Origin: an uncultured Bacteroidales bacterium
GTDB taxonomy: Bacteria > Bacteroidota > Bacteroidia > Bacteroidales > GCA-2748055
Assembly: GCA_963764345.1 (NCBI GenBank)
Contig: CAVXSF010000009.1
Coordinates: 131,116-195,115, forward strand
Length of the DNA: 64,000 nt
Direction of reading: 5' to 3'
Shown: positions 9,308-58,919 of the stretch, in pieces
Numbering within the stretch: the stretch's first letter is position 1
Layout: every line of letters begins with the position of its first letter
The notes under the pieces: model-generated
Told to the model about the DNA's origin: nothing
Seen by the model: the letters and a program-made list of their open reading frames with translations, nothing else
Database searches by the model: none
Made by a program: the position numbers and the translations under genes

Positions 9308-9551
9308 GGGGAGTTAGGGATTGAGGGATTGAGGGATTGAGGGATTGAGGGATTGAGGGAAAGAGGAAAGGAGGAATGATGGTGTTTGTAGAGGCGCAAT
9401 TAGGAGATCTGGAGGAATCGAGATTAATTTCGCAAAAACGAATTGAGGGATTGAGGGATTCAGGGAATAGGGATTAATCGATTGACGTGCAAAACTGAAA
9501 TCTGTGCCTAATCTGTTCGTAATTGTCCTAATCTGTGAAATCTGTGGTGAA
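9308..9551 (+). repeat. G-rich mosaic repeat array R1, the shortest member of the five-array family
   Basis: The left end is GGGGAGTTAGGGA, followed by 5x GGGATTGA (9317-9356). A degenerate middle follows. The right end is TTCGTAATTGTCCTAATCTGTGAAATCTGTGGTGAA. Confidence 0.85.
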
Positions 9552-14983: not shown

Positions 14984-15598
14984 ATGCTTAAAGATCTCTT
15001 TCTTAAAAACCGCAGCTACCGGAGATTTCACCAGGGTGTGCCCGTACCGGCAGCCGACCTCATGGATATGATCGACAATGCCCGTCTGGCCGCTTCCGGC
15101 AGGAATGTCCAGCCCCTGAAGTACATCCTGGTAAACGATCCCGCCGTATGTTCAAAGGTGTTTCCCTGCCTGGCCTGGGCCGGGTATCTCAAAGACTGGG
15201 ACGGTCCTGCCGACGGTGAACGGCCGTCGGCCTACATTGTGCAGCTGCACGACACCACCCTCGCCCCCGGGTATTTCTGCGATGACGGTATCGCTGCCCA
15301 GAGCATTCTTCTCACCGCCGTGGAAAAAAATTTCGGCGGATGCATCATTGCCACCGTTAAACGCGACGAATTGTCCGCCCTTCTCAACATCCCGTCCCAC
15401 CTGAAAATCCTGCATGTCTTTGCCCTTGGAAAACCAAAGGAGACTGTCATCGTCGAAGATGTGAAAAACAACGACATCCGCTACTGGCGGGATGAAAACC
15501 AGGTGCACCATGTGCCGAAGCGATCACTGGAGGAGCTGGTGGTGGGGATGGGAGGAGTTAGGGAAAGGCAAAAGGCGAAAGGCGAAAGGCAAAAGTGA
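14984..15598 (+). CDS. Nitroreductase family protein; the last ~15 codons are supplied by repeat array R2
   Basis: I chose ATG 14984 (MLKDLFLKNRSYRRF, a typical nitroreductase N-terminus) rather than the track start at 14813. The tail GGVRERQKAKGERQK is read from the GGAGTTAGGG and GAAAGGC repeat tracts. Confidence 0.85.
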   Translation: MLKDLFLKNRSYRRFHQGVPVPAADLMDMIDNARLAASGRNVQPLKYILVNDPAVCSKVFPCLAWAGYLKDWDGPADGERPSAYIVQLHDTTLAPGYFCDDGIAAQSILLTAVEKNFGGCIIATVKRDELSALLNIPSHLKILHVFALGKPKETVIVEDVKNNDIRYWRDENQVHHVPKRSLEELVVGMGGVRERQKAKGERQK

Positions 15599-17004
15599 GG
15601 GATTGAGTCAGGAAATTAGAGGTTAGGGAGGCCGAATGAACCGTGTAAACGGGAATTCCGATTGTTAAATATCAATATCAAAAACGTAGAGACGTGATGC
15701 ATCATGTCTTCGTGGGGAATTGAATATTGAATATCGAATATCGAATATTGAATATCGAATATTGAATATTGAATTTGGAGACGGGTGAAAATAGACAAAA
15801 ACCGGTCAACGAATTCGTAGACGCACGCCTTGGCGTGCATACGATAAATGCCGTTTTCATTTGGAAGAAAAAAGGCGAAAGGCAAAAGTGAGGGATTGAG
15901 TCAGGAAATTAGAGGTCAGAGGTTAGGGAGGCCGAATGAACCGTGTAAACGGGAATTCCGATTGTTAAATATCAATATCAAAAACGTAGAGACGTGATGC
16001 ATCATGTCTTCGTGGGGAATTGAATATCGAATATCGAATGTCGAATATTGAATGTCGAATATCGAATATCGAATATTGAATATTGAATTTGGAGACGGGT
16101 GAAAATAGACAAAAACCGGTCAACGAATTCGTAGACGCACGCCTTGGCGTGCATACGATAAATGCCGTTTTCATTTGGAAGAAAAAAGGCGAAAGGCAAA
16201 AGTGAGGGATTGAGTCAGGAAATTAGAGGTCAGAGGTTAGGGAGGCCGAATGAACCGTGTAAACGGGAATTCCGATTGTTAAATATCAATATCAAAAACG
16301 TAGAGACGTGATGCATCATGTCTTCGTGGGGAATTGAATATTGAATATCGAATATCGAATATTGAATATCGAATATTGAATATTGAATTTGGAGACGGGT
16401 GAAAATAGACAAAAACCGGTCAACGAATTCGTAGACGCACGCCTTGGCGTGCATACGATAAATGCCGTTTTCATTTGGAAGAAAAAAGGCGAAAGGCAAA
16501 AGTGAGGGATTGAGTCAGGAAATTAGAGGTCAGAGGTTAGGGAGGCCGAATGAACCGTGTAAACGGGAATTCCGATTGTTAAATATCAATATCAAAAACG
16601 TAGAGACGTGATGCATCATGTCTTCGTGGGGAATTGAATATCGAATATCGAATTCGAATCTTTCGAATATTGAATATCCGAATATTGAATATCGAATTTG
16701 CGTAGATCTGTGGTGAAAATAGACAAAATCGGTCAACTAATTCGTAGACACACGCCTTGGCGTGCATAACCGATAAATACCGTTTTCATTTGGACGAAGA
16801 AAGGCGAAAGGCAAAAGTTAGGATTGAGTTAGGAAATTAGAGGTGAGAGGTTAGGGAGGCCGAATGAACCGTGTAAACGGGAATTCCGATTGTTAAATAT
16901 CAATATCAAAAACGTGGAGACGTGATGCGTCATGTCTTTGGAAAAATCGGATAATCTTTCCTAAAATCTGTGCTAATCTGTGTAATCTGTGTAATCTGTG
17001 GTGA
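15551..17004 (+). repeat. G-rich mosaic repeat array R2: about 5 tandem copies of a ~300-bp higher-order unit
   Basis: The anchor AAAAGTGAGGGATTGAG recurs at 15591, 15884, 16198 and 16498, with a degenerate copy at 16813 (spacings 293, 314, 300 and 315 bp). Each unit contains a GAAAGGC tract, a 20-nt imperfect palindrome AGACGTGATGCATCATGTCT, a variable GAATATC/GAATATT tract, GGAGACGGG, and the palindrome GCACGCCTTGGCGTGC. The array ends in (TAATCTGTG)n GTGGTGA. Confidence 0.9.
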
Positions 17005-17135
17005 TTCCCTCTCCTGCCCCAATATCTTTATCGTTATCAACACTTTGTGGATAAACTCGTTTTCCCGGGATAGGAATATTACGTACATTTAATAAATGGG
17101 AATATTCTTCCCGTGCAACCTTTTTTTTCAAAGCC

Positions 17136-17717
17136 TTGTCTACCATGCGGAGCGAATCTATGAAAGATGAAAAGGAATTACTCAGACGCTGCACACGTAA
17201 CGACAGGACCGCCCAGAAGATCCTGTACGACCGTTTTGCGCCGGCGATGCTGGGTATCTGCGTGAGGTTCACCGGCAACCGGGCGGAAGCCGAGGACATC
17301 TTGCAGGACGGGTTCGTGAAGGTCTTTTTAAAACTGAAGGATTTCGAAGGCAGGAGTTCCCTCTACGGCTGGATACGTAAGGTGATGATCAACACGGCCA
17401 TCACCCATTACCACCGCAACCTGAAGCACCGCTACCATTACGACATCGACGATTTCAGGGAGCGGGACACCGTGGAAGCCGATTGGCAGGATGCCGGTTT
17501 CACCGCAGATGAGCTGCAGGGGGTGATCGCTTCGCTGCCCCCTGGCTACCGGATGGTTTTCAGCCTCTACGCAGTGGAAGGCTACAAGCACCGGGAGATC
17601 GCCAAAGAGCTGGGCATCGACGTCAACACCTCGAAATCGCAGTACTCCAGGGCCAGGAAGCTCATCCAGAGCCGGCTGGCCAGTATGGACAAAGTAGCGA
17701 AAAAGAAAAATGGTTAA
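17136..17717 (+). CDS. ECF-type RNA polymerase sigma-70 factor
   Basis: Region 2 reads RAEAEDILQDGFVKVF...YGWIRKVMINTAI. Region 4 reads PPGYRMVFSLYAVEGYKHREIAKELGIDVNTSKSQYSRARKLI. The start could instead be ATG 17145 or 17160. Confidence 0.9.
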   Translation: MSTMRSESMKDEKELLRRCTRNDRTAQKILYDRFAPAMLGICVRFTGNRAEAEDILQDGFVKVFLKLKDFEGRSSLYGWIRKVMINTAITHYHRNLKHRYHYDIDDFRERDTVEADWQDAGFTADELQGVIASLPPGYRMVFSLYAVEGYKHREIAKELGIDVNTSKSQYSRARKLIQSRLASMDKVAKKKNG

Positions 17718-18178: not shown

Positions 18179-19063
18179 ATGGCAACCGGAGAACCACCTG
18201 CCGCACAGGCATCAGAGGAGAACGATACAACCGGCACCGCCACCCTTGACCTTCTGCCCCTGGCCATCTTCGAGCCTTCGGTGAGAGAGGGTTGTGCCCC
18301 GCTGACCGTAACCTTTGCCAACCTCTCCCAAAACAGCCATGCCTGGCAGTGGAGTTTTGGCGACGGGCAGGAGGCGGATCAGAAAGAACCCGTCCATCGT
18401 TTTGAAAATCCAGGCGAATACTTCGTGATCCTGACGGCTGAAGGCGACAATCACACCGTCTCCACCCTCACCCTCACCATCGTGGTGCATCCGCGGCCCG
18501 AAGCCAGCTTCAACATAGAGGCAGCAGGCATGCCCGGCAACGGGAAGCCGGTGTACTTTTATAACCTCAGCACCGGCGCTGAAAGTTACGAGTGGCATTT
18601 CGGCGACGGCGGTGTCTCACACGACCGGGAGCCGGTATGGAACTACGACAAGGCCGGCAGGTATACCATCACCCTGATCGCCCGCAGCGCCTCCGGCTGC
18701 ACCGATACCATGGTGATGGAGAACGCCTTTGACCAGGGCGGGCCGGAGATCCGGTTCCCCAATGCCTTCAGCCCCGACATGAACGGGCCAACAGGTGGAT
18801 ATTACCATGCCGGCGACAGTAACCATGACGTCTTTCATCCGTATACAGGCGAAGTCCCGGAAACGTACGAATTAAAGATCTACAACCGCACCGGGAACCT
18901 GGTCTTTGAAAGTCATGATTTCCACCTTGGATGGGACGGCTATTACCAGGGCAGGCTTCAGCCACGCGGTGTGTATATATGGAAGGCCAGGGGACGTTTT
19001 GCCGGCGGAAAAACCTTTGAAGAAATGGGCGACGTAACGATGATATATAATGGAGGGAGTTAG
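18179..19063 (+). CDS. 2x PKD domain protein with a T9SS type-B (gliding-motility-associated) C-terminal domain; the real N-terminus is probably upstream
   Basis: PKD motifs are FANLSQNSHAWQWSFGDG and YNLSTGAESYEWHFGDGG. The CTD reads FPNAFSPDMNG...LKIYNRTGNLVFES...GWDGYYQG...GVYIWKARG. There is no signal peptide after M18179, and the same frame is open back to 18020. Confidence 0.8.
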   Translation: MATGEPPAAQASEENDTTGTATLDLLPLAIFEPSVREGCAPLTVTFANLSQNSHAWQWSFGDGQEADQKEPVHRFENPGEYFVILTAEGDNHTVSTLTLTIVVHPRPEASFNIEAAGMPGNGKPVYFYNLSTGAESYEWHFGDGGVSHDREPVWNYDKAGRYTITLIARSASGCTDTMVMENAFDQGGPEIRFPNAFSPDMNGPTGGYYHAGDSNHDVFHPYTGEVPETYELKIYNRTGNLVFESHDFHLGWDGYYQGRLQPRGVYIWKARGRFAGGKTFEEMGDVTMIYNGGS

Positions 19064-19797
19064 AGATTAGAGATTGGGGATTAGAGATTGGGGATTGGGG
19101 AGTTAGAGATTAGAGATTGGGGATTAGAGATTGGGGATTGGGGAGTTAGAGATTAGAGATTGGGGATTAGAGATTGGGGATTGGGGAGTTAGAGATTAGA
19201 GATTGGGGATTAGAGATTGGGGATTGGGGAGTTAGAGATTAGAGATTGGGGATTAGAGATTGGGGATTGGGGAGTTAGAGATTAGAGAGTTAGAGATTAG
19301 AGATTGGGGAGTTAGGAGGAGTACTGAATTAACATCTTCATAACTTCATAACCTCATAACCTCATAACTTCATAACCTCATAACCTCATAACTCTTTAGA
19401 AAAGTTAGGGAGTTAGGGATTGAGGGAGTTAGGGATTGAGTGGGAAGAAAGGTGTGAAAGGTGAAAGGAGGCGGATAAATGATGGTTTTTATTTCGTAGA
19501 GACGAGCAATTATGCACGTCTCCTGGAAAATACGGAATTAATCATTCGTGCGAAAAACAAAAGGTGAAAAGTGAAAGGTGAAAGTGAAGGAAAGAGAATA
19601 TTGAATATCGAATATTGAATATCGAATATCGAATAATGAATTCGGAGACGGGAGAAGGACTTAGTAAATACTGCGGCGGACTGGGTTTCCCCTTTAGGGG
19701 ACTAAGGGGTGAGCGTAGGGAGGAAGGGGAGACGGTCGTAGAGACGCCATGTATGGCGTCTCTACTACAAAACAACCCCGAATTTCCTAATATCATC
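19054..19797 (+). repeat. G-rich mosaic repeat array R3
   Basis: A 43-bp higher-order unit (AGAGATT AGAGATT GGGGATT AGAGATT GGGGATT GGGGAGTT) occurs about 5.5 times, with anchors at 19059, 19101, 19144, 19187, 19230 and 19273. It is followed by 7x TCATAACY, GGGAGTTA/GGGATTGA tracts, GAAAGGT and GAATATC tracts, and GGAGACGGG. Next come the GGGTTTCCCCTTTAGGGG module, a perfect palindrome at 19738-19765, and a CGAATTTCCTAATATC right end. Confidence 0.9.
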
Positions 19798-36977: not shown

Positions 36978-38452
36978 GCGGAGTTAGGGAGTTAGGGAGT
37001 TAGGGAGTTAGGGAGTTAGGGAGTTAGGGAGTTAGGGAGTTAGGGAAGAGGATTGAGGGATTAAGGGATTTAGTGGGAAGAAAGGTGAAAGGCGAAAGGC
37101 GAAAGGCAAAAGTGAGGGATTGAGGGAGAATATCGAATGATTCGGAGACGGGAGAAGGATTTAGTAAATGCGATGGTGGGCTGGGTTTCCCCTTTAGGGG
37201 ATTAAGGGGTGAGCGTAGGGAGTTAGGGATTGAGGGATTGAGGGATTGAGGGATTGAGGGATTTAGTGGGAAGAAAGGTGAAAGGCGAAAGGCGAAAGGC
37301 AAAAGTGAGGGATTGAGGGAGAATATCGAATGATTCGGAGACGGGAGAAGGATTTAGTAAATGCGACTGGTGGGCTGGGTTTCCCCTTAGGGGATTAAGG
37401 GGTGAGCGTAGGGAGTTAGGGAGTTGAGGGATTGAGGGATTGAGGGATTGAGGGATTTAGTGGGAAGAAAGGTGAAAGGTGAAAGGCGAAAGGCAAAAGT
37501 GAGGGATTGAGGGAGAATATCGAATGATTCGGAGACGGGAGAAGGCCTTAGTAAATGCTACGGTGGGCTGGGTTTCCCCTAGGGGATTAAGGGGTGAGCG
37601 TAGGGAGTTAGGGAGTATAGGGATTGAGGGATTGAGGGATTGAGGGATTTAGTGGGAAGAAAGGTGAAAGGCGAAAGGCGAAAGGCAAAAGTGAGGGATT
37701 GAGGGAGAATATCGAATGATTCGGAGACGGGAGAAGGATTTAGTAAATGCGATGGTGGGCTGGGTTTCCCCTTTAGGGGATTAAGGGGTGAGCGTAGGGA
37801 GTTGAGGGATTGAGGGATTGAGGGATTTAGTGGGAAGAAAGGTGAAAGGCGAAAGGCGAAAGGCAAAAGTGAGGGATTGAGGGAGAATATCGAATGATTC
37901 GGAGACGGGAGAAGGCCTTAGTAAATGCTACGGTGGGCTGGGTTTCCCCCTTAGGGGATTAAGGGGTGAGCGTAGGGAGTTAGGGATTGAGGGATTGAGG
38001 GATTGAGGGATTTAGTGGGAAGAAAGGTGAAAGGCGAAAGGCGAAAGGCAAAAGTGAGGGATTGAGGGAGAATATCGAATGATTCGGAGACGGGAGAAGG
38101 CCTTAGTAAATGCTACGGTGGGCTGGGTTTCCCCTTAGGGGACTAAGGGGTGAGCGTAGGGAGTTGAGGGATTGAGTGGATTGAGGGATTTAGTGGGAAG
38201 AAAGGTGAAAGGCGAAAGGCGAAAGGCAAAAGTGAGGGATTGAGGGAGAATATCGAATGATTCGGAGACGGGAGAAGGATTTAGTAAATGCGATGGTGGG
38301 CTGGGTTTCCCCTTTAGGGGACTAAGGGGTGAGCGTAGGGAGTTATTGAGTTGTTGAGTTGTTGAGTTGTTGAGTTGTTGAGTTGTTGAGTTGTTGAGTT
38401 GTTGAGTTGTCCGTAATTCCTAATCAGTGTAATCAGTGTAATCAGTGGTGAA
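36978..38452 (+). repeat. G-rich mosaic repeat array R4: 7 tandem copies of a ~180-194-bp higher-order unit, between the giant gene and sprF
   Basis: It starts directly after the giant-gene TAG (36975-36977) with 8x GGGAGTTA. The unit consists of a GGGATTGA tract, TTTAGTGGGAAGAAAGGT, a GAAAGGC tract, AAAAGTGAGGGATTGAGGGAGAATATCGAATGATTCGGAGACGGGAGAAGG, and GGGCTGGGTTTCCCC(T)nAGGGGATTAAGGGGTGAGCGTAGGG. GAGCGTAGGG anchors lie near 37211, 37403, 37595, 37789, 37968, 38152 and 38331. The array ends with 8x GTTGAGTT, CCGTAATTCCTAATC, 3x TAATCAGTG and GTGGTGAA. Confidence 0.9.
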
Positions 38453-58108: not shown

Positions 58109-58919
58109 GGAGACGGGTCAGGGAAAGGCGAAAGGTGAAAGTTAGGGAGTTAGGGAGTTAGGGATTGAGGGAGTTAGGGAGTTAGGGATTGAGGGAGTTA
58201 GGGATTTAGGATAGTTAGGGATTGAGGGATTAGGGATTGAGGGATTAGGGATTAGGGATTGAGGGATTGAGGGATTGAGGGAGTTAGGGATTGAGGGATT
58301 GAGGGATTGAGGGATTGAGGGATTTAGTAAATGCTACGGTGGGCTGGGTTTCCCCTTTAAGGGGATTAAGGGGTGAGCGTGGGGAAAAAGATGCGGGAAA
58401 AAGAATAGAGGGAAGAGAGGTGGGAGTTAGGGATTGAGGGATTGAGGGATTGAGGGATTAGTGAAGATGGGTTGAGGATGGACTGAGATTTCCCCTTTAG
58501 GGGATTAGAGGGGTGAGCGTGGGGAAAAAGATGCGGGAAAGGGAAGGATAGAGGGAGAGAGTTAGGGAGTTAGGGATTGAGGGATTGAGGGATTGAGGGA
58601 TTGAGGGATTGAGGGATTGAGGGATTTAGTAAATGCTACGGTGGGCTGGGTTTCCCCTTTAAGGGGATTAAGGGGTGAGCGTGGGGAAAAAGATGCGGGA
58701 AAAAGAATAGAGGGAAGAGAGGTGGGAGTTAGGGAGTTAGGGAGTTAGGGAGTTAGGGATTGAGGGAGTTAGGGATTTAGTAAATGCTACGGCGGGCTGA
58801 GTTTCCCCTTTAGGGGACTAAGGGGTGAGCGTAGGGAGTGAGAGAGTTCGTGGTTGAGTTGTTCGTAATTCCTAATCTTTAATAATCTGTCCCGTATAGT
58901 TATCGGGATCTGTGGTGAA
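58109..58919 (+). repeat. G-rich mosaic repeat array R5
   Basis: It starts GGAGACGGGTCAGGGAAAGGCGAAAGGTGAAAGTTAGGGAGTTAGGG. It has long GGGATTGA / GGGAGTTA / GGGATTA tracts. There are four copies of TTTCCCCTTTA(A)GGGGATTAAGGGGTGAGCGTGGGG, each followed by a GAAAAAGATGCGGGAAA.. module. The right end is GTTCGTAATTCCTAATC...ATCTGTGGTGAA. Confidence 0.9.

What the first reader, a model, noticed from the sequence alone, without database searches (positions are those of the whole stretch)
15551..17004. Array R2: a ~300-bp unit repeated about five times, with two palindromes and a length-variable 7-mer tract in every unit
Anchors at 15591, 15884, 16198, 16498 and 16813 give unit lengths of 293, 314, 300 and 315 bp. 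The length differences map to the GAATATC/GAATATT tract, so a microsatellite is nested inside a minisatellite. Every unit keeps two elements: an imperfect 20-nt palindrome AGACGTGATG|CATCATGTCT (first copy 15690-15709, with one G-T pair) and GCACGCC-TT-GGCGTGC (first copy 15823-15838). Copies 1 and 3 are identical over at least 270 bp; the spurious minus-strand ORFs 15616-15885 and 16230-16499 have identical translations. This implies recent duplication or gene conversion. Structures retained amid length variation suggest the palindromes are the selected part, either as protein-binding sites or as RNA/DNA hairpins.
Basis: seen in the sequence. Interest (0 to 1): 0.6.

Follow-up and report, generated by a model that had tools for sequence, protein, structure and literature searches.

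The report
Tandem array of REP hairpin modules
This 1.4-kb non-coding block is four and a half tandem copies of a 300-base unit built around two REP-type DNA hairpins, a known class of small selfish bacterial repeat tied to RAYT transposases that this genome also encodes; it is a fast-changing but essentially ordinary repeat cluster, not a new kind of device.

Summary
The array is real: four full units of 293, 314, 300 and 315 bp, then a truncated fifth, between a nitroreductase gene and an ECF sigma gene. An independent assembly of a second strain also carries it.

Both palindromes are worn copies of one known repeat type. This is the 28-nt "double-foot" REP (5' GTAG...CTAC 3') described for TnpA_REP/RAYT subclass 2.4 in Bacteroidetes (PMC6006769).

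- **Palindrome 1:** its exact full version, GTAGAGACGTGATGCATCACGTCTCTAC, lies in frame inside a RAYT gene of this genome. It also lies inside homologous RAYT genes on unrelated metagenome contigs.
- **Palindrome 2:** it differs by one compensatory base pair from the REPs that flank a second RAYT gene here.

The unit is a mosaic: microsatellite, module A, (GAATATY)n, module B. The pieces occur separately in dozens of other intergenic arrays of this species and its sister species.

The array turns over fast. The second strain (about 98% identical flanks) has different microsatellite lengths and a different set of units. The sister species has only the head and tail at this site.

No promoter, terminator, Rfam or coding signal was found.

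Earlier scan notes had compared this genome's arrays with BOX and BrickBuilt elements, and had noted double-foot REPs in other genomes. The RAYT link was established here.

The parts
15551..15580 (+). G-rich head of the element (GGAGTTAGGG, then AAAGGCR heptamers). The nitroreductase ORF reads through it to a TGA at 15596-15598.
   Evidence: The same head sequence stands at the orthologous site in sister genome G004.
15581..15873 (+). Unit 1 (293 bp): mini-head, module A, (GAATATY)n, module B.
   Evidence: No substitutions against unit 3; the only difference is a 7-bp indel.
15874..16187 (+). Unit 2 (314 bp).
16188..16487 (+). Unit 3 (300 bp).
16488..16802 (+). Unit 4 (315 bp), diverged (about 93% identical to units 1-3). 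It has no counterpart in the second strain.
16803..16937 (+). Truncated unit 5: mini-head plus module A, ending at REP_A.
16938..17004 (+). Tail: GGAAAAATCGGA...AATCTTTCC, then (AATCTGTGT)n. The same REP_A-plus-tail ending closes at least two other arrays of the genome.
   Evidence: The tail is also present in G004 at this site.
15686..15709 (+). REP_A copy 1, GTAGAGACGTGATGCATCATGTCT. The 5' GTAG foot is kept, the 3' CTAC foot is lost, and there is one G-T pair.
15986..16009 (+). REP_A copy 2.
16300..16323 (+). REP_A copy 3.
16600..16623 (+). REP_A copy 4.
16914..16937 (+). REP_A copy 5, with a GTGG foot and a second G-T pair.
15817..15842 (+). REP_B copy 1, GTAG-AC-GCACGCC-TT-GGCGTGC-ATAC.
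16131..16156 (+). REP_B copy 2.
16431..16456 (+). REP_B copy 3.
16744..16770 (+). REP_B copy 4 (GTAGACACACGCC...; carries extra substitutions).
15719..15774 (+). (GAATATY)n microsatellite of unit 1, 8 copies.
   Evidence: This tract follows REP_A in nearly all genomic copies.
16019..16088 (+). (GAATATY)n microsatellite of unit 2, about 10 copies.
   Evidence: It is 7 bp longer in the second strain.
16333..16388 (+). (GAATATY)n microsatellite of unit 3, 8 copies.
   Evidence: At this position the second strain carries a unit-2-type copy whose tract is 14 bp longer.
16636..16698 (+). Degenerate (GAATATY)n tract of unit 4.

Best explanation
Array R2 is a non-coding cluster of REP (repetitive extragenic palindrome) elements that has been amplified in tandem together with adjoining sequence.

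Each 300-bp unit carries two worn copies of the 28-nt "double-foot" REP that goes with RAYT (TnpA_REP subclass 2.4) tyrosine transposases:
- **REP_A:** GTAGAGAC-GTGATGCATCAY-GTCT...
- **REP_B:** GTAGAC-GCACGCC-TT-GGCGTGC-ATAC

The hairpins are kept because, as folded single-stranded DNA with a 5' GTAG guide, they are what the genome's own RAYT enzymes recognise. This step is inferred from the E. coli TnpA_REP biochemistry cited in PMC6006769.

The rest of the unit consists of bricks that this species and its sister species recombine into dozens of different intergenic arrays. These bricks are the G-rich mini-head, an AT-rich stretch, the (GAATATY)n tract that almost always trails REP_A, and the remainder of module B.

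At this site a composite A+B unit was multiplied locally. It is now gaining and losing whole units and 7-bp steps on the timescale of strains. The likely processes are replication slippage and unequal recombination between units; this is inferred from the pattern of identity, not shown.

The element most likely has no dedicated function for the flanking genes. Its only demonstrated effect is that the head supplies the last 15 codons and the stop codon of the nitroreductase ORF.
For: **Shown here**
1. **Modularity.** Modules A (28 good copies) and B (23-24) occur apart and together in other arrays of G000 and of the sister species G004. Among 185,579 species genomes, module B's hairpin was found only in G004, a MAG of an uncultured Bacteroidales bacterium.
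2. **Both hairpins carry a GTAG foot.** Every one of the 26 exact B cores and nearly every A core has it.
3. **REP_A is a trimmed 28-nt palindrome.**
   - The genome has 15 full GTAGRGAC-N-GTCYCTAC copies.
   - The pattern occurs in 86 of 301 sampled Bacteroidota genomes, against about 12 for the reversed control. It is nearly always 28 nt long.
   - The variable centre stays self-complementary: 159 of 188 positions across 35 different 4-mers.
   - This matches the published "double foot" REP of subclass 2.4, which is abundant in Bacteroidetes (PMC6006769).
4. **Cognate enzymes are encoded in G000.**
   - C2:182045-182956 has NHFH, WQ and YIRRNP motifs and carries the exact full REP_A in frame (RDVMHHVST).
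   - C8:306896-307567 carries its own REP type in frame twice, with two more copies just downstream.
   - C13:~75042-75539 is flanked by inverted GTGG..GCGCGCC-TT/AA-GGCGCGC..CCAC REPs. These differ from REP_B by one compensatory pair.
   - All hit only NCBIfam NF047646, REP-associated tyrosine transposase (E 4e-16 to 6e-7).
   - Their profile hits only PDB 4ER8, E. coli TnpA_REP (E 1e-6, HuH and WQ/Y regions aligned).
   - REPs inserted in frame in the transposase gene are the stated hallmark of subclass 2.4.
5. **Link seen elsewhere.** Five of the 32 unrelated metagenome contigs holding REP_A carry a homologous RAYT frame with REP_A in frame. Four were extracted; three are full-length and one is truncated.
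6. **Turnover.**
   - The second strain has unit lengths 296, 321, 314 and 302 and a different unit set.
   - G004 has only head and tail here, and G005 has nothing.
   - Most other A/B arrays sit at the same sites in G000 and G004 but differ in length.
7. **Published precedent.** Tandem reiteration of REPs together with flanking DNA is described in PMC3733652.
Against: - The R2 copies lack the 3' CTAC foot, and REP_A has a G-T mismatch in all five copies. They may no longer be substrates for the enzyme.
- No exact REP_B was found in or beside a RAYT gene. The link to the C13 gene rests on near-identity.
- All REPs in the arrays are head-to-tail, an arrangement reported as rare for REPs.
- The RAYT hits are below NCBIfam's curated cut-off, and Pfam PF01797 missed them.
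- The 65-nt AT-rich part of module A is as well conserved as REP_A and remains unexplained.
Confidence: 0.78

Rival explanations
1. The array is a host cis-element. Its stable hairpins act in the nitroreductase transcript, or between the two genes, as terminators, RNA-decay barriers or insulators. This role, proposed for some enterobacterial REPs, would be why the palindromes are kept.
For: The array lies between two co-directional genes and begins inside the 3' end of the upstream ORF. REP_B is a very stable C(CUUG)G-type hairpin, and module B folds better than shuffled sequence (z -2.3 and -2.5). Wobble changes that keep pairing on the G-rich strand occur in several copies. PMC3733652 argues that many REPs are transcribed.
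Against: Terminator-like and promoter-like sites are not enriched over shuffles. No T-run directly follows either hairpin. Genome-wide, array orientation is unrelated to the direction of flanking genes: 17, 20, 15 and 10 arrays in the four classes. The sister species does without the units at this same site, and strains differ in unit content. Module A does not fold better than shuffles (z -0.97).
Confidence: 0.1
2. The whole block from head to tail is a MITE-like non-autonomous transposon, like BrickBuilt of Porphyromonas gingivalis. It would be inserted as a unit by a transposase unrelated to RAYT, and the REPs would be passengers.
For: Arrays share a G-rich head and an (AATCTGTG)n tail. The element is absent from the orthologous site in G005 and present in G004 and G000. 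A leader-repeat-tail layout resembles BrickBuilt.
Against: No terminal inverted repeat of 14 nt or more was found across 15400-17200. No target-site duplication could be defined. Most arrays are syntenic between the two species rather than at new sites. The head and tail are themselves microsatellites of variable length.
Confidence: 0.08
3. Each unit encodes a structured small RNA, so the array is a tandem sRNA gene cluster.
For: Module B has a nested three-part stem on the G-rich strand, with weak signs of wobble-preserving change.
Against: There is no Rfam match at gathering score or at E up to 1. No promoter-like signal recurs in each unit. There are no two-sided compensatory changes among 38 distinct B copies. 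Modules recombine freely, and unit content differs between strains.
Confidence: 0.03

Closest known systems
"Double-foot" REP sequences of TnpA_REP (RAYT) subclass 2.4 (Quentin, Siguier, Chandler, Fichant 2018, PMC6006769)
   Same: They share the 5' GT[AG]G foot and, in full copies, the 3' C[TC]AC foot. The family is abundant in Bacteroidetes. [quoted passage not shown] The genome has roughly one RAYT gene per REP type.
   Different: The copies in R2 have lost the 3' foot. They are embedded in about 100-nt conserved modules and arranged head-to-tail in 300-bp tandem units with nested microsatellites. Tandem arrays are not mentioned in that paper's main text.
GTAG-tagged REP families and their clusters (Di Nocera, De Gregorio, Rocco 2013, PMC3733652); BIMEs of enterobacteria
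   Same: REP_B has the same layout: GTAG tag, 2-nt spacer, 7-bp GC-rich stem, TY loop and short tail. [quoted passage not shown]
   Different: That survey found GTAG families mainly in Proteobacteria and reported only CGTC-type repeats in Bacteroidetes. Head-to-tail dimers are rare there, and BIMEs alternate REP orientation. Here every REP points the same way, and the units are far longer.
BrickBuilt minisatellite-containing MITE of Porphyromonas gingivalis (Klein et al. 2015, PMC4596501)
   Same: Both are Bacteroidales elements, strictly intergenic and present at many sites, with a leader, a tandem repeat and a tail. Copy number varies between strains.
   Different: BrickBuilt repeats a 23-nt unit and has small inverted-repeat ends and promoter activity. 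R2 has 300-bp composite units with REP hairpins, no terminal inverted repeats and no promoter signal.

Membership tests
REP elements (GTAG-tagged; PMC3733652, PMC6006769) | A conserved GT[AG]G tetranucleotide at the 5' foot of the hairpin. | tested here: met
   All 5 REP_A copies (GTAG four times, GTGG once) and all 4 REP_B copies in R2 have it. So do 26 of 26 exact B cores and nearly all A cores genome-wide.
REP elements (GTAG-tagged; PMC3733652, PMC6006769) | A short stem-loop (stem 6-13 bp, short loop), with the hairpin maintained across family members. | tested here: met
   REP_A has a 9-bp stem and REP_B a 7-bp stem with an NN/TY loop. Across the wider family, 159 of 188 variable positions are complementary. 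Within module copies, changes are one-sided only.
REP elements (GTAG-tagged; PMC3733652, PMC6006769) | Many dispersed, mostly extragenic copies in one genome. | tested here: met
   There are 22 exact A cores, 26 exact B cores and 15 full double-foot copies on many contigs. The arrays are mostly non-coding.
REP elements (GTAG-tagged; PMC3733652, PMC6006769) | A cognate RAYT/TnpA_REP gene in the same genome, physically associated with the same REP type. | tested here: met
   The exact full REP_A lies in frame in the RAYT at C2:182045-182956. A B-like REP (one compensatory pair away) flanks the RAYT at C13 in inverted orientation. RAYT identity rests on NF047646 (E down to 4e-16, below cut-off) and on PDB 4ER8 as the only profile hit.
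REP elements (GTAG-tagged; PMC3733652, PMC6006769) | Cleavage, rejoining or mobilisation by the RAYT. | not testable with these tools
   This needs biochemistry or mobilome sequencing.
Double-foot REP subtype (subclass 2.4) | Both a 5' GT[AG]G and a 3' C[TC]AC foot on the same element. | tested here: not met
   The R2 copies end ...GTCTTCGT (A) and ...GCATACGA (B), so the 3' foot is degenerate. Full copies with identical cores do have both feet elsewhere in the genome. R2's hairpins are therefore filed as derivatives of this subtype, not as intact members.
BIME / REPIN | Two REPs in inverted orientation forming the basic unit. | tested here: not met
   All REPs in R2, and in the other A/B arrays, are in one orientation.
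MITE (for example BrickBuilt) | Terminal inverted repeats and a target-site duplication. | tested here: not met
   No inverted repeat joins the two ends of the array. No duplication is evident at the G004 or G005 comparison sites; the site in G005 is too diverged for base-level mapping.
CRISPR array | Short repeats separated by unique spacers. | tested here: not met
   Units are 93-100% identical over their whole 300 bp, so there are no unique spacers.
Any Rfam RNA family | A covariance-model match. | tested here: not met
   There were no matches at gathering score over the window, nor at E up to 1 over 15500-17100.

The most novel reading that the evidence does not exclude
The arrays are products of RAYT action rather than merely containing REPs. 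In this reading, hairpin-guided cutting and rejoining of single-stranded DNA at replication forks would seed the flanking microsatellites and multiply REP-bearing units head-to-tail. That would give a concrete route by which REP clusters and bacterial minisatellites arise.

Hints, none decisive:
- A microsatellite almost always trails REP_A.
- Microsatellites also flank the REP_A that sits inside the RAYT gene itself.
- REP loci are about 4 times enriched for adjacent microsatellites: 19 of 70 loci, against 6.7% of random intergenic positions.
- The Y1 transposase genes examined in sister genomes G004 and G002 sit inside or next to tandem arrays of hairpin units.
- The G-rich strand of the arrays lies on the strand of negative GC skew in 37 of 54 cases.
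Probability: 0.2. Interest if true: 0.55.

Novelty: new variant of a known kind. Interest (0 to 1): 0.3.

Why it matters
The two palindromes could have been taken for a new regulatory or RNA device. They are instead REP hairpins with their RAYT enzymes present in the same genome, so the finding is largely explained.

What is modestly new:
- REP/RAYT systems of Bacteroidales can build long head-to-tail composite minisatellites with nested microsatellites.
- These arrays occupy dozens of gene gaps. G-rich non-coding arrays total about 38 kb in this genome.
- They change between strains.

Practical consequences:
- Pfam's Y1_Tnp model missed all of this genome's RAYT genes. "No RAYT" calls in Bacteroidota based on that model alone should be distrusted.
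- Such arrays are useful strain markers.
- They can add a repeat-encoded tail and a new stop codon to an upstream gene, as with the nitroreductase here.

Tried and rejected
- **Pfam PF01797 search and tblastn with a sister-genome Y1 protein.** Both were negative. I first read this as "RAYT absent". A motif scan, NF047646 and a PDB profile search later showed it was a false negative.
- **Rfam at two thresholds.** Nothing found.
- **Sigma-70 promoter and terminator scan.** No more sites than in shuffles. Bacteroidetes-type promoters are not covered by the tool; reading the sequence by eye gave only one-mismatch TAnnTTTG matches.
- **Folding z-scores.** Weak for module A, moderate for module B on both strands. 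They do not show which strand folds.
- **Covariation among module copies from two species.** Stems are nearly invariant and all changes are one-sided, so this test has no power at that level.
- **Array orientation against flanking gene direction.** No rule.
- **First metagenome pattern.** I had mis-specified it with fixed Ns; it was corrected.
- **Literature search by the sequence letters.** It returned only unrelated primer matches.
- **The genome search on metagenome loci.** Those records are not held.
- **Y1 gene 6 kb from REP_A on contig L075.** It has different flanking hairpins and is not a cognate.
- **CRISPR, coding repeat, iteron and sRNA-array readings.** Considered and rejected; see the membership tests.
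Full report
**1. The observation**

Tandem Repeats Finder reports one array at 15578-16938 with period 314, 4.5 copies, 93% matches and score 2296. Exact-seed repeat finding and a MAFFT alignment give four full units, a truncated fifth and a tail:
- Unit 1: 15581-15873, 293 bp.
- Unit 2: 15874-16187, 314 bp.
- Unit 3: 16188-16487, 300 bp.
- Unit 4: 16488-16802, 315 bp.
- Unit 5: 16803-16937, truncated.
- Tail: (AATCTGTGT)n, running to 17004.

Units 1 and 3 are identical over 300 nt. The two minus-strand ORFs translate identically but are spurious: every frame has at least 2 stops per unit, and the indels come in steps of 7 and 14 bp.

Two details are wrong. The fifth copy has neither the heptamer tract nor the second palindrome. 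The 293 versus 300 bp difference lies in an AGAGGTY heptamer, not in the GAATATY tract.

Units 1-3 are 99.3-100% identical to each other, and unit 4 is about 93% identical to them.

**2. The unit is a mosaic of bricks used throughout the genome**

The window is G000:C9:131116-195115 of a 5.15-Mb, 35-contig genome. One unit finds 124 matches in this genome. These fall into separate pieces:
- the G-rich mini-head (query positions 1-30);
- module A (about 19-183);
- the GAATATY tract;
- module B (about 187-311).

The pieces occur together or apart in arrays with other periods. Tandem repeats take up about 2% of the genome. Of these, 62 non-coding arrays (37.7 kb) are strongly G-rich on one strand.

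Among 40 relatives, only the sister species G004 shares modules A and B; other relatives share only microsatellite motifs. Among one genome for each of 185,579 species, the module B hairpin occurs only in G004, a MAG of an uncultured Bacteroidales bacterium.

**3. The site in relatives and in a second strain**

- **G005** (flanks about 70% identical): the gap between the nitroreductase and sigma genes has no repeat at all.
- **G004** (flanks 92-96% identical): it has the G-rich head, 30 unrelated bases and the tail microsatellites, but no A or B unit.
- **Second strain:** an independent ENA assembly (ERZ25039549 contig_57031, locus L093, flanks about 98% identical) has the array with the same count of 4.5 units. 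Its unit lengths are 296, 321, 314 and 302. The diverged unit 4 of G000 has no counterpart there, and its third unit matches G000's unit 2 (2 substitutions, no gaps).

Whole units and 7-bp steps are therefore gained and lost between strains. Most other A/B arrays of G004 lie at sites orthologous to G000 arrays but differ in length. The family is thus mainly inherited in place and remodelled there.

**4. What the palindromes are**

Elsewhere in the genome palindrome 1 is perfect (GACGTGATGCATCACGTC). The R2 copies all share a C-to-T change. Both palindromes are preceded by CGTAGA.

- **Metagenome scan.** GTAGA(N0-3)GACGTGATGCATCACGTC found 32 contigs with unrelated flanks, GC content of 29-45% and at most 65-74% coding identity to G000. 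In 22 of them the match extends to the perfect 28-nt palindrome GTAGAGACGTGATGCATCACGTCTCTAC.
- **Phylum survey.** GTAGRGAC-N(6-16)-GTCYCTAC occurs in 86 of 301 sampled Bacteroidota genomes, against about 12 for the reversed control. It is nearly always 28 nt long. Its centre varies but stays self-complementary: 159 of 188 positions across 35 different 4-mers.
- **Published description.** An earlier scan note led me to Quentin et al. 2018, which I read. [quoted passage not shown] Uniquely, it has REPs inserted in frame within the tnpA_REP gene.
- **REP_B.** GTAG-AC-GCACGCC-TT-GGCGTGC-ATAC has the layout of GTAG-tagged REPs in Di Nocera et al. 2013: tag, 2-nt spacer, 6-9 bp stem, TY loop and short tail. 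Full double-foot versions (GTAGAG-GCACGCC-NN-GGCGTGC-CTCTAC) exist in G000.

**5. The enzymes**

Pfam PF01797 found nothing in G000, which misled me for a while. A motif scan and NCBIfam NF047646 then found four RAYT-like genes:
- **C2:182045-182956.** 303 codons with NHFH, WQ and YIRRNP motifs. The exact full REP_A is in frame (RDVMHHVST), flanked by in-frame microsatellites.
- **C8:306896-307567.** Its own REP, GTAGAGACGCCCAATTTGGGCGTCTCTAC, is in frame twice, with two more copies just downstream.
- **C13:~75042-75539.** It is flanked by inverted GTGG..GCGCGCC-TT/AA-GGCGCGC..CCAC REPs. These differ from REP_B by one compensatory A-T to G-C pair.
- **C9:624046-624726.** It carries long hairpins of a different type.

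All four hit only NF047646 (E 4e-16 to 6e-7), below the curated cut-off. A profile of three of them plus three metagenome homologues hits a single PDB chain, 4ER8, E. coli TnpA_REP (E 1e-6). Both the HuH and the WQ...Y regions align.

Five of the 32 metagenome contigs with REP_A carry a homologous RAYT frame with REP_A in frame. Four were extracted; three are full-length and one is truncated.

"One RAYT per REP type" is the published REPtron pattern.

**6. Conservation**

- In module B the stem columns are 0.008 non-consensus against 0.119 elsewhere, and the loop varies.
- In module A the palindrome (0.037) is only slightly better kept than the rest (0.064).
- No two-sided compensatory change occurs among 30 distinct A copies and 38 distinct B copies.

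It succeeds only across the wider family.

**7. Architecture around the REPs**

REP_A is almost always followed by GGGGAAT(TGAATAT/CGAATAT)n, whatever precedes it. Array-terminal REP_A copies are followed by a conserved tail (GAAAAAnCGGA...AATCTGTG) in three arrays, including R2.

**8. Tests of function at this locus**

- There is no Rfam match.
- Promoter-like and terminator-like sites are not more frequent than in shuffles.
- Array orientation shows no relation to flanking gene direction.
- Fold z-scores are weak to moderate.

**9. Verdict**

R2 is a tandemly amplified, rapidly changing cluster of two degenerate double-foot REPs plus linked microsatellites and filler modules. It belongs to a REP/RAYT system whose enzymes are encoded in the same genome.

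The kind is known: REPs, RAYTs, double-foot REPs, and REP clusters reiterated with flanking DNA. The long head-to-tail composite units with nested microsatellites and shared head and tail are a variant that I did not find described.

Two steps are inferred, not shown: that local growth is by slippage or unequal recombination, and that RAYT recognition is what keeps the hairpins.

Noticed in passing
G000:C2:182045-182956 (outside the window): An intact 303-codon RAYT gene carries three different microsatellites in frame between its HuH and Y motifs, as well as the 28-nt REP_A. They encode the runs DCPR/DCPG, LNPFPP and NPNMHQ. The enzyme's variable insert is thus built from the same REP-plus-microsatellite material as the intergenic arrays.
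   Followed up: partly
G000 whole genome; search: Pfam PF01797 (Y1_Tnp) detects none of the four RAYT-like genes of this genome at E up to 0.001. NCBIfam NF047646 finds all four, though below its cut-off. RAYT absence calls in Bacteroidota based on Pfam alone are unreliable.
   Followed up: yes
L081 (G004:C7:54177-57515) and L085 (G004:C12:283500-289500); also L080 (G002): Y1 transposase genes with DH[IV]H or NH[IL]H, WQ and YxxNQ motifs resemble subclass 1.2, which PMC6006769 lists as having no REPs. In G004 they nevertheless sit inside tandem arrays of 133-nt or about 200-nt hairpin-bearing units. In G002 a 100-nt hairpin-unit array lies just downstream. G000 lacks both G004 loci, but pieces of the 133-nt unit are scattered through its arrays.
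   Followed up: partly
62 G-rich non-coding arrays genome-wide; in the window at 9308-9551, 15551-17004, 19054-19797, 36978-38452 and 58109-58919: The G-rich strand of the arrays lies on the strand with negative background GC skew in 37 of 54 scorable cases. All five arrays in the window point the same way. This may reflect a link to replication direction, but contigs cannot place the origin and the arrays are not independent of each other.
   Followed up: partly
window 15551-15598: The nitroreductase ORF (homologues in G002, G003 and G005 end near ...LEELVV) reads 15 extra codons (GGVRERQKAKGERQK) from the array head before a repeat-encoded TGA. In G005, which has no element, the protein ends ...IIVSKI.
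   Followed up: partly
window 19490-19530 and 19735-19770: The neighbouring array R3 carries two more REPs of the same family: GTAGAGACGAGCAATTATGCACGTCTC, and the full double-foot GTAGAGACGCCATGTATGGCGTCTCTAC at 19738-19765.
   Followed up: no
window 9309-9374, 37217-38012 and 58142-58626: Runs such as (AGGGATTG)n in sibling arrays fit the G3-N5-G3 pattern of potential G-quadruplexes on the G-rich strand. R2 itself has only single GGG runs in each unit.
   Followed up: no
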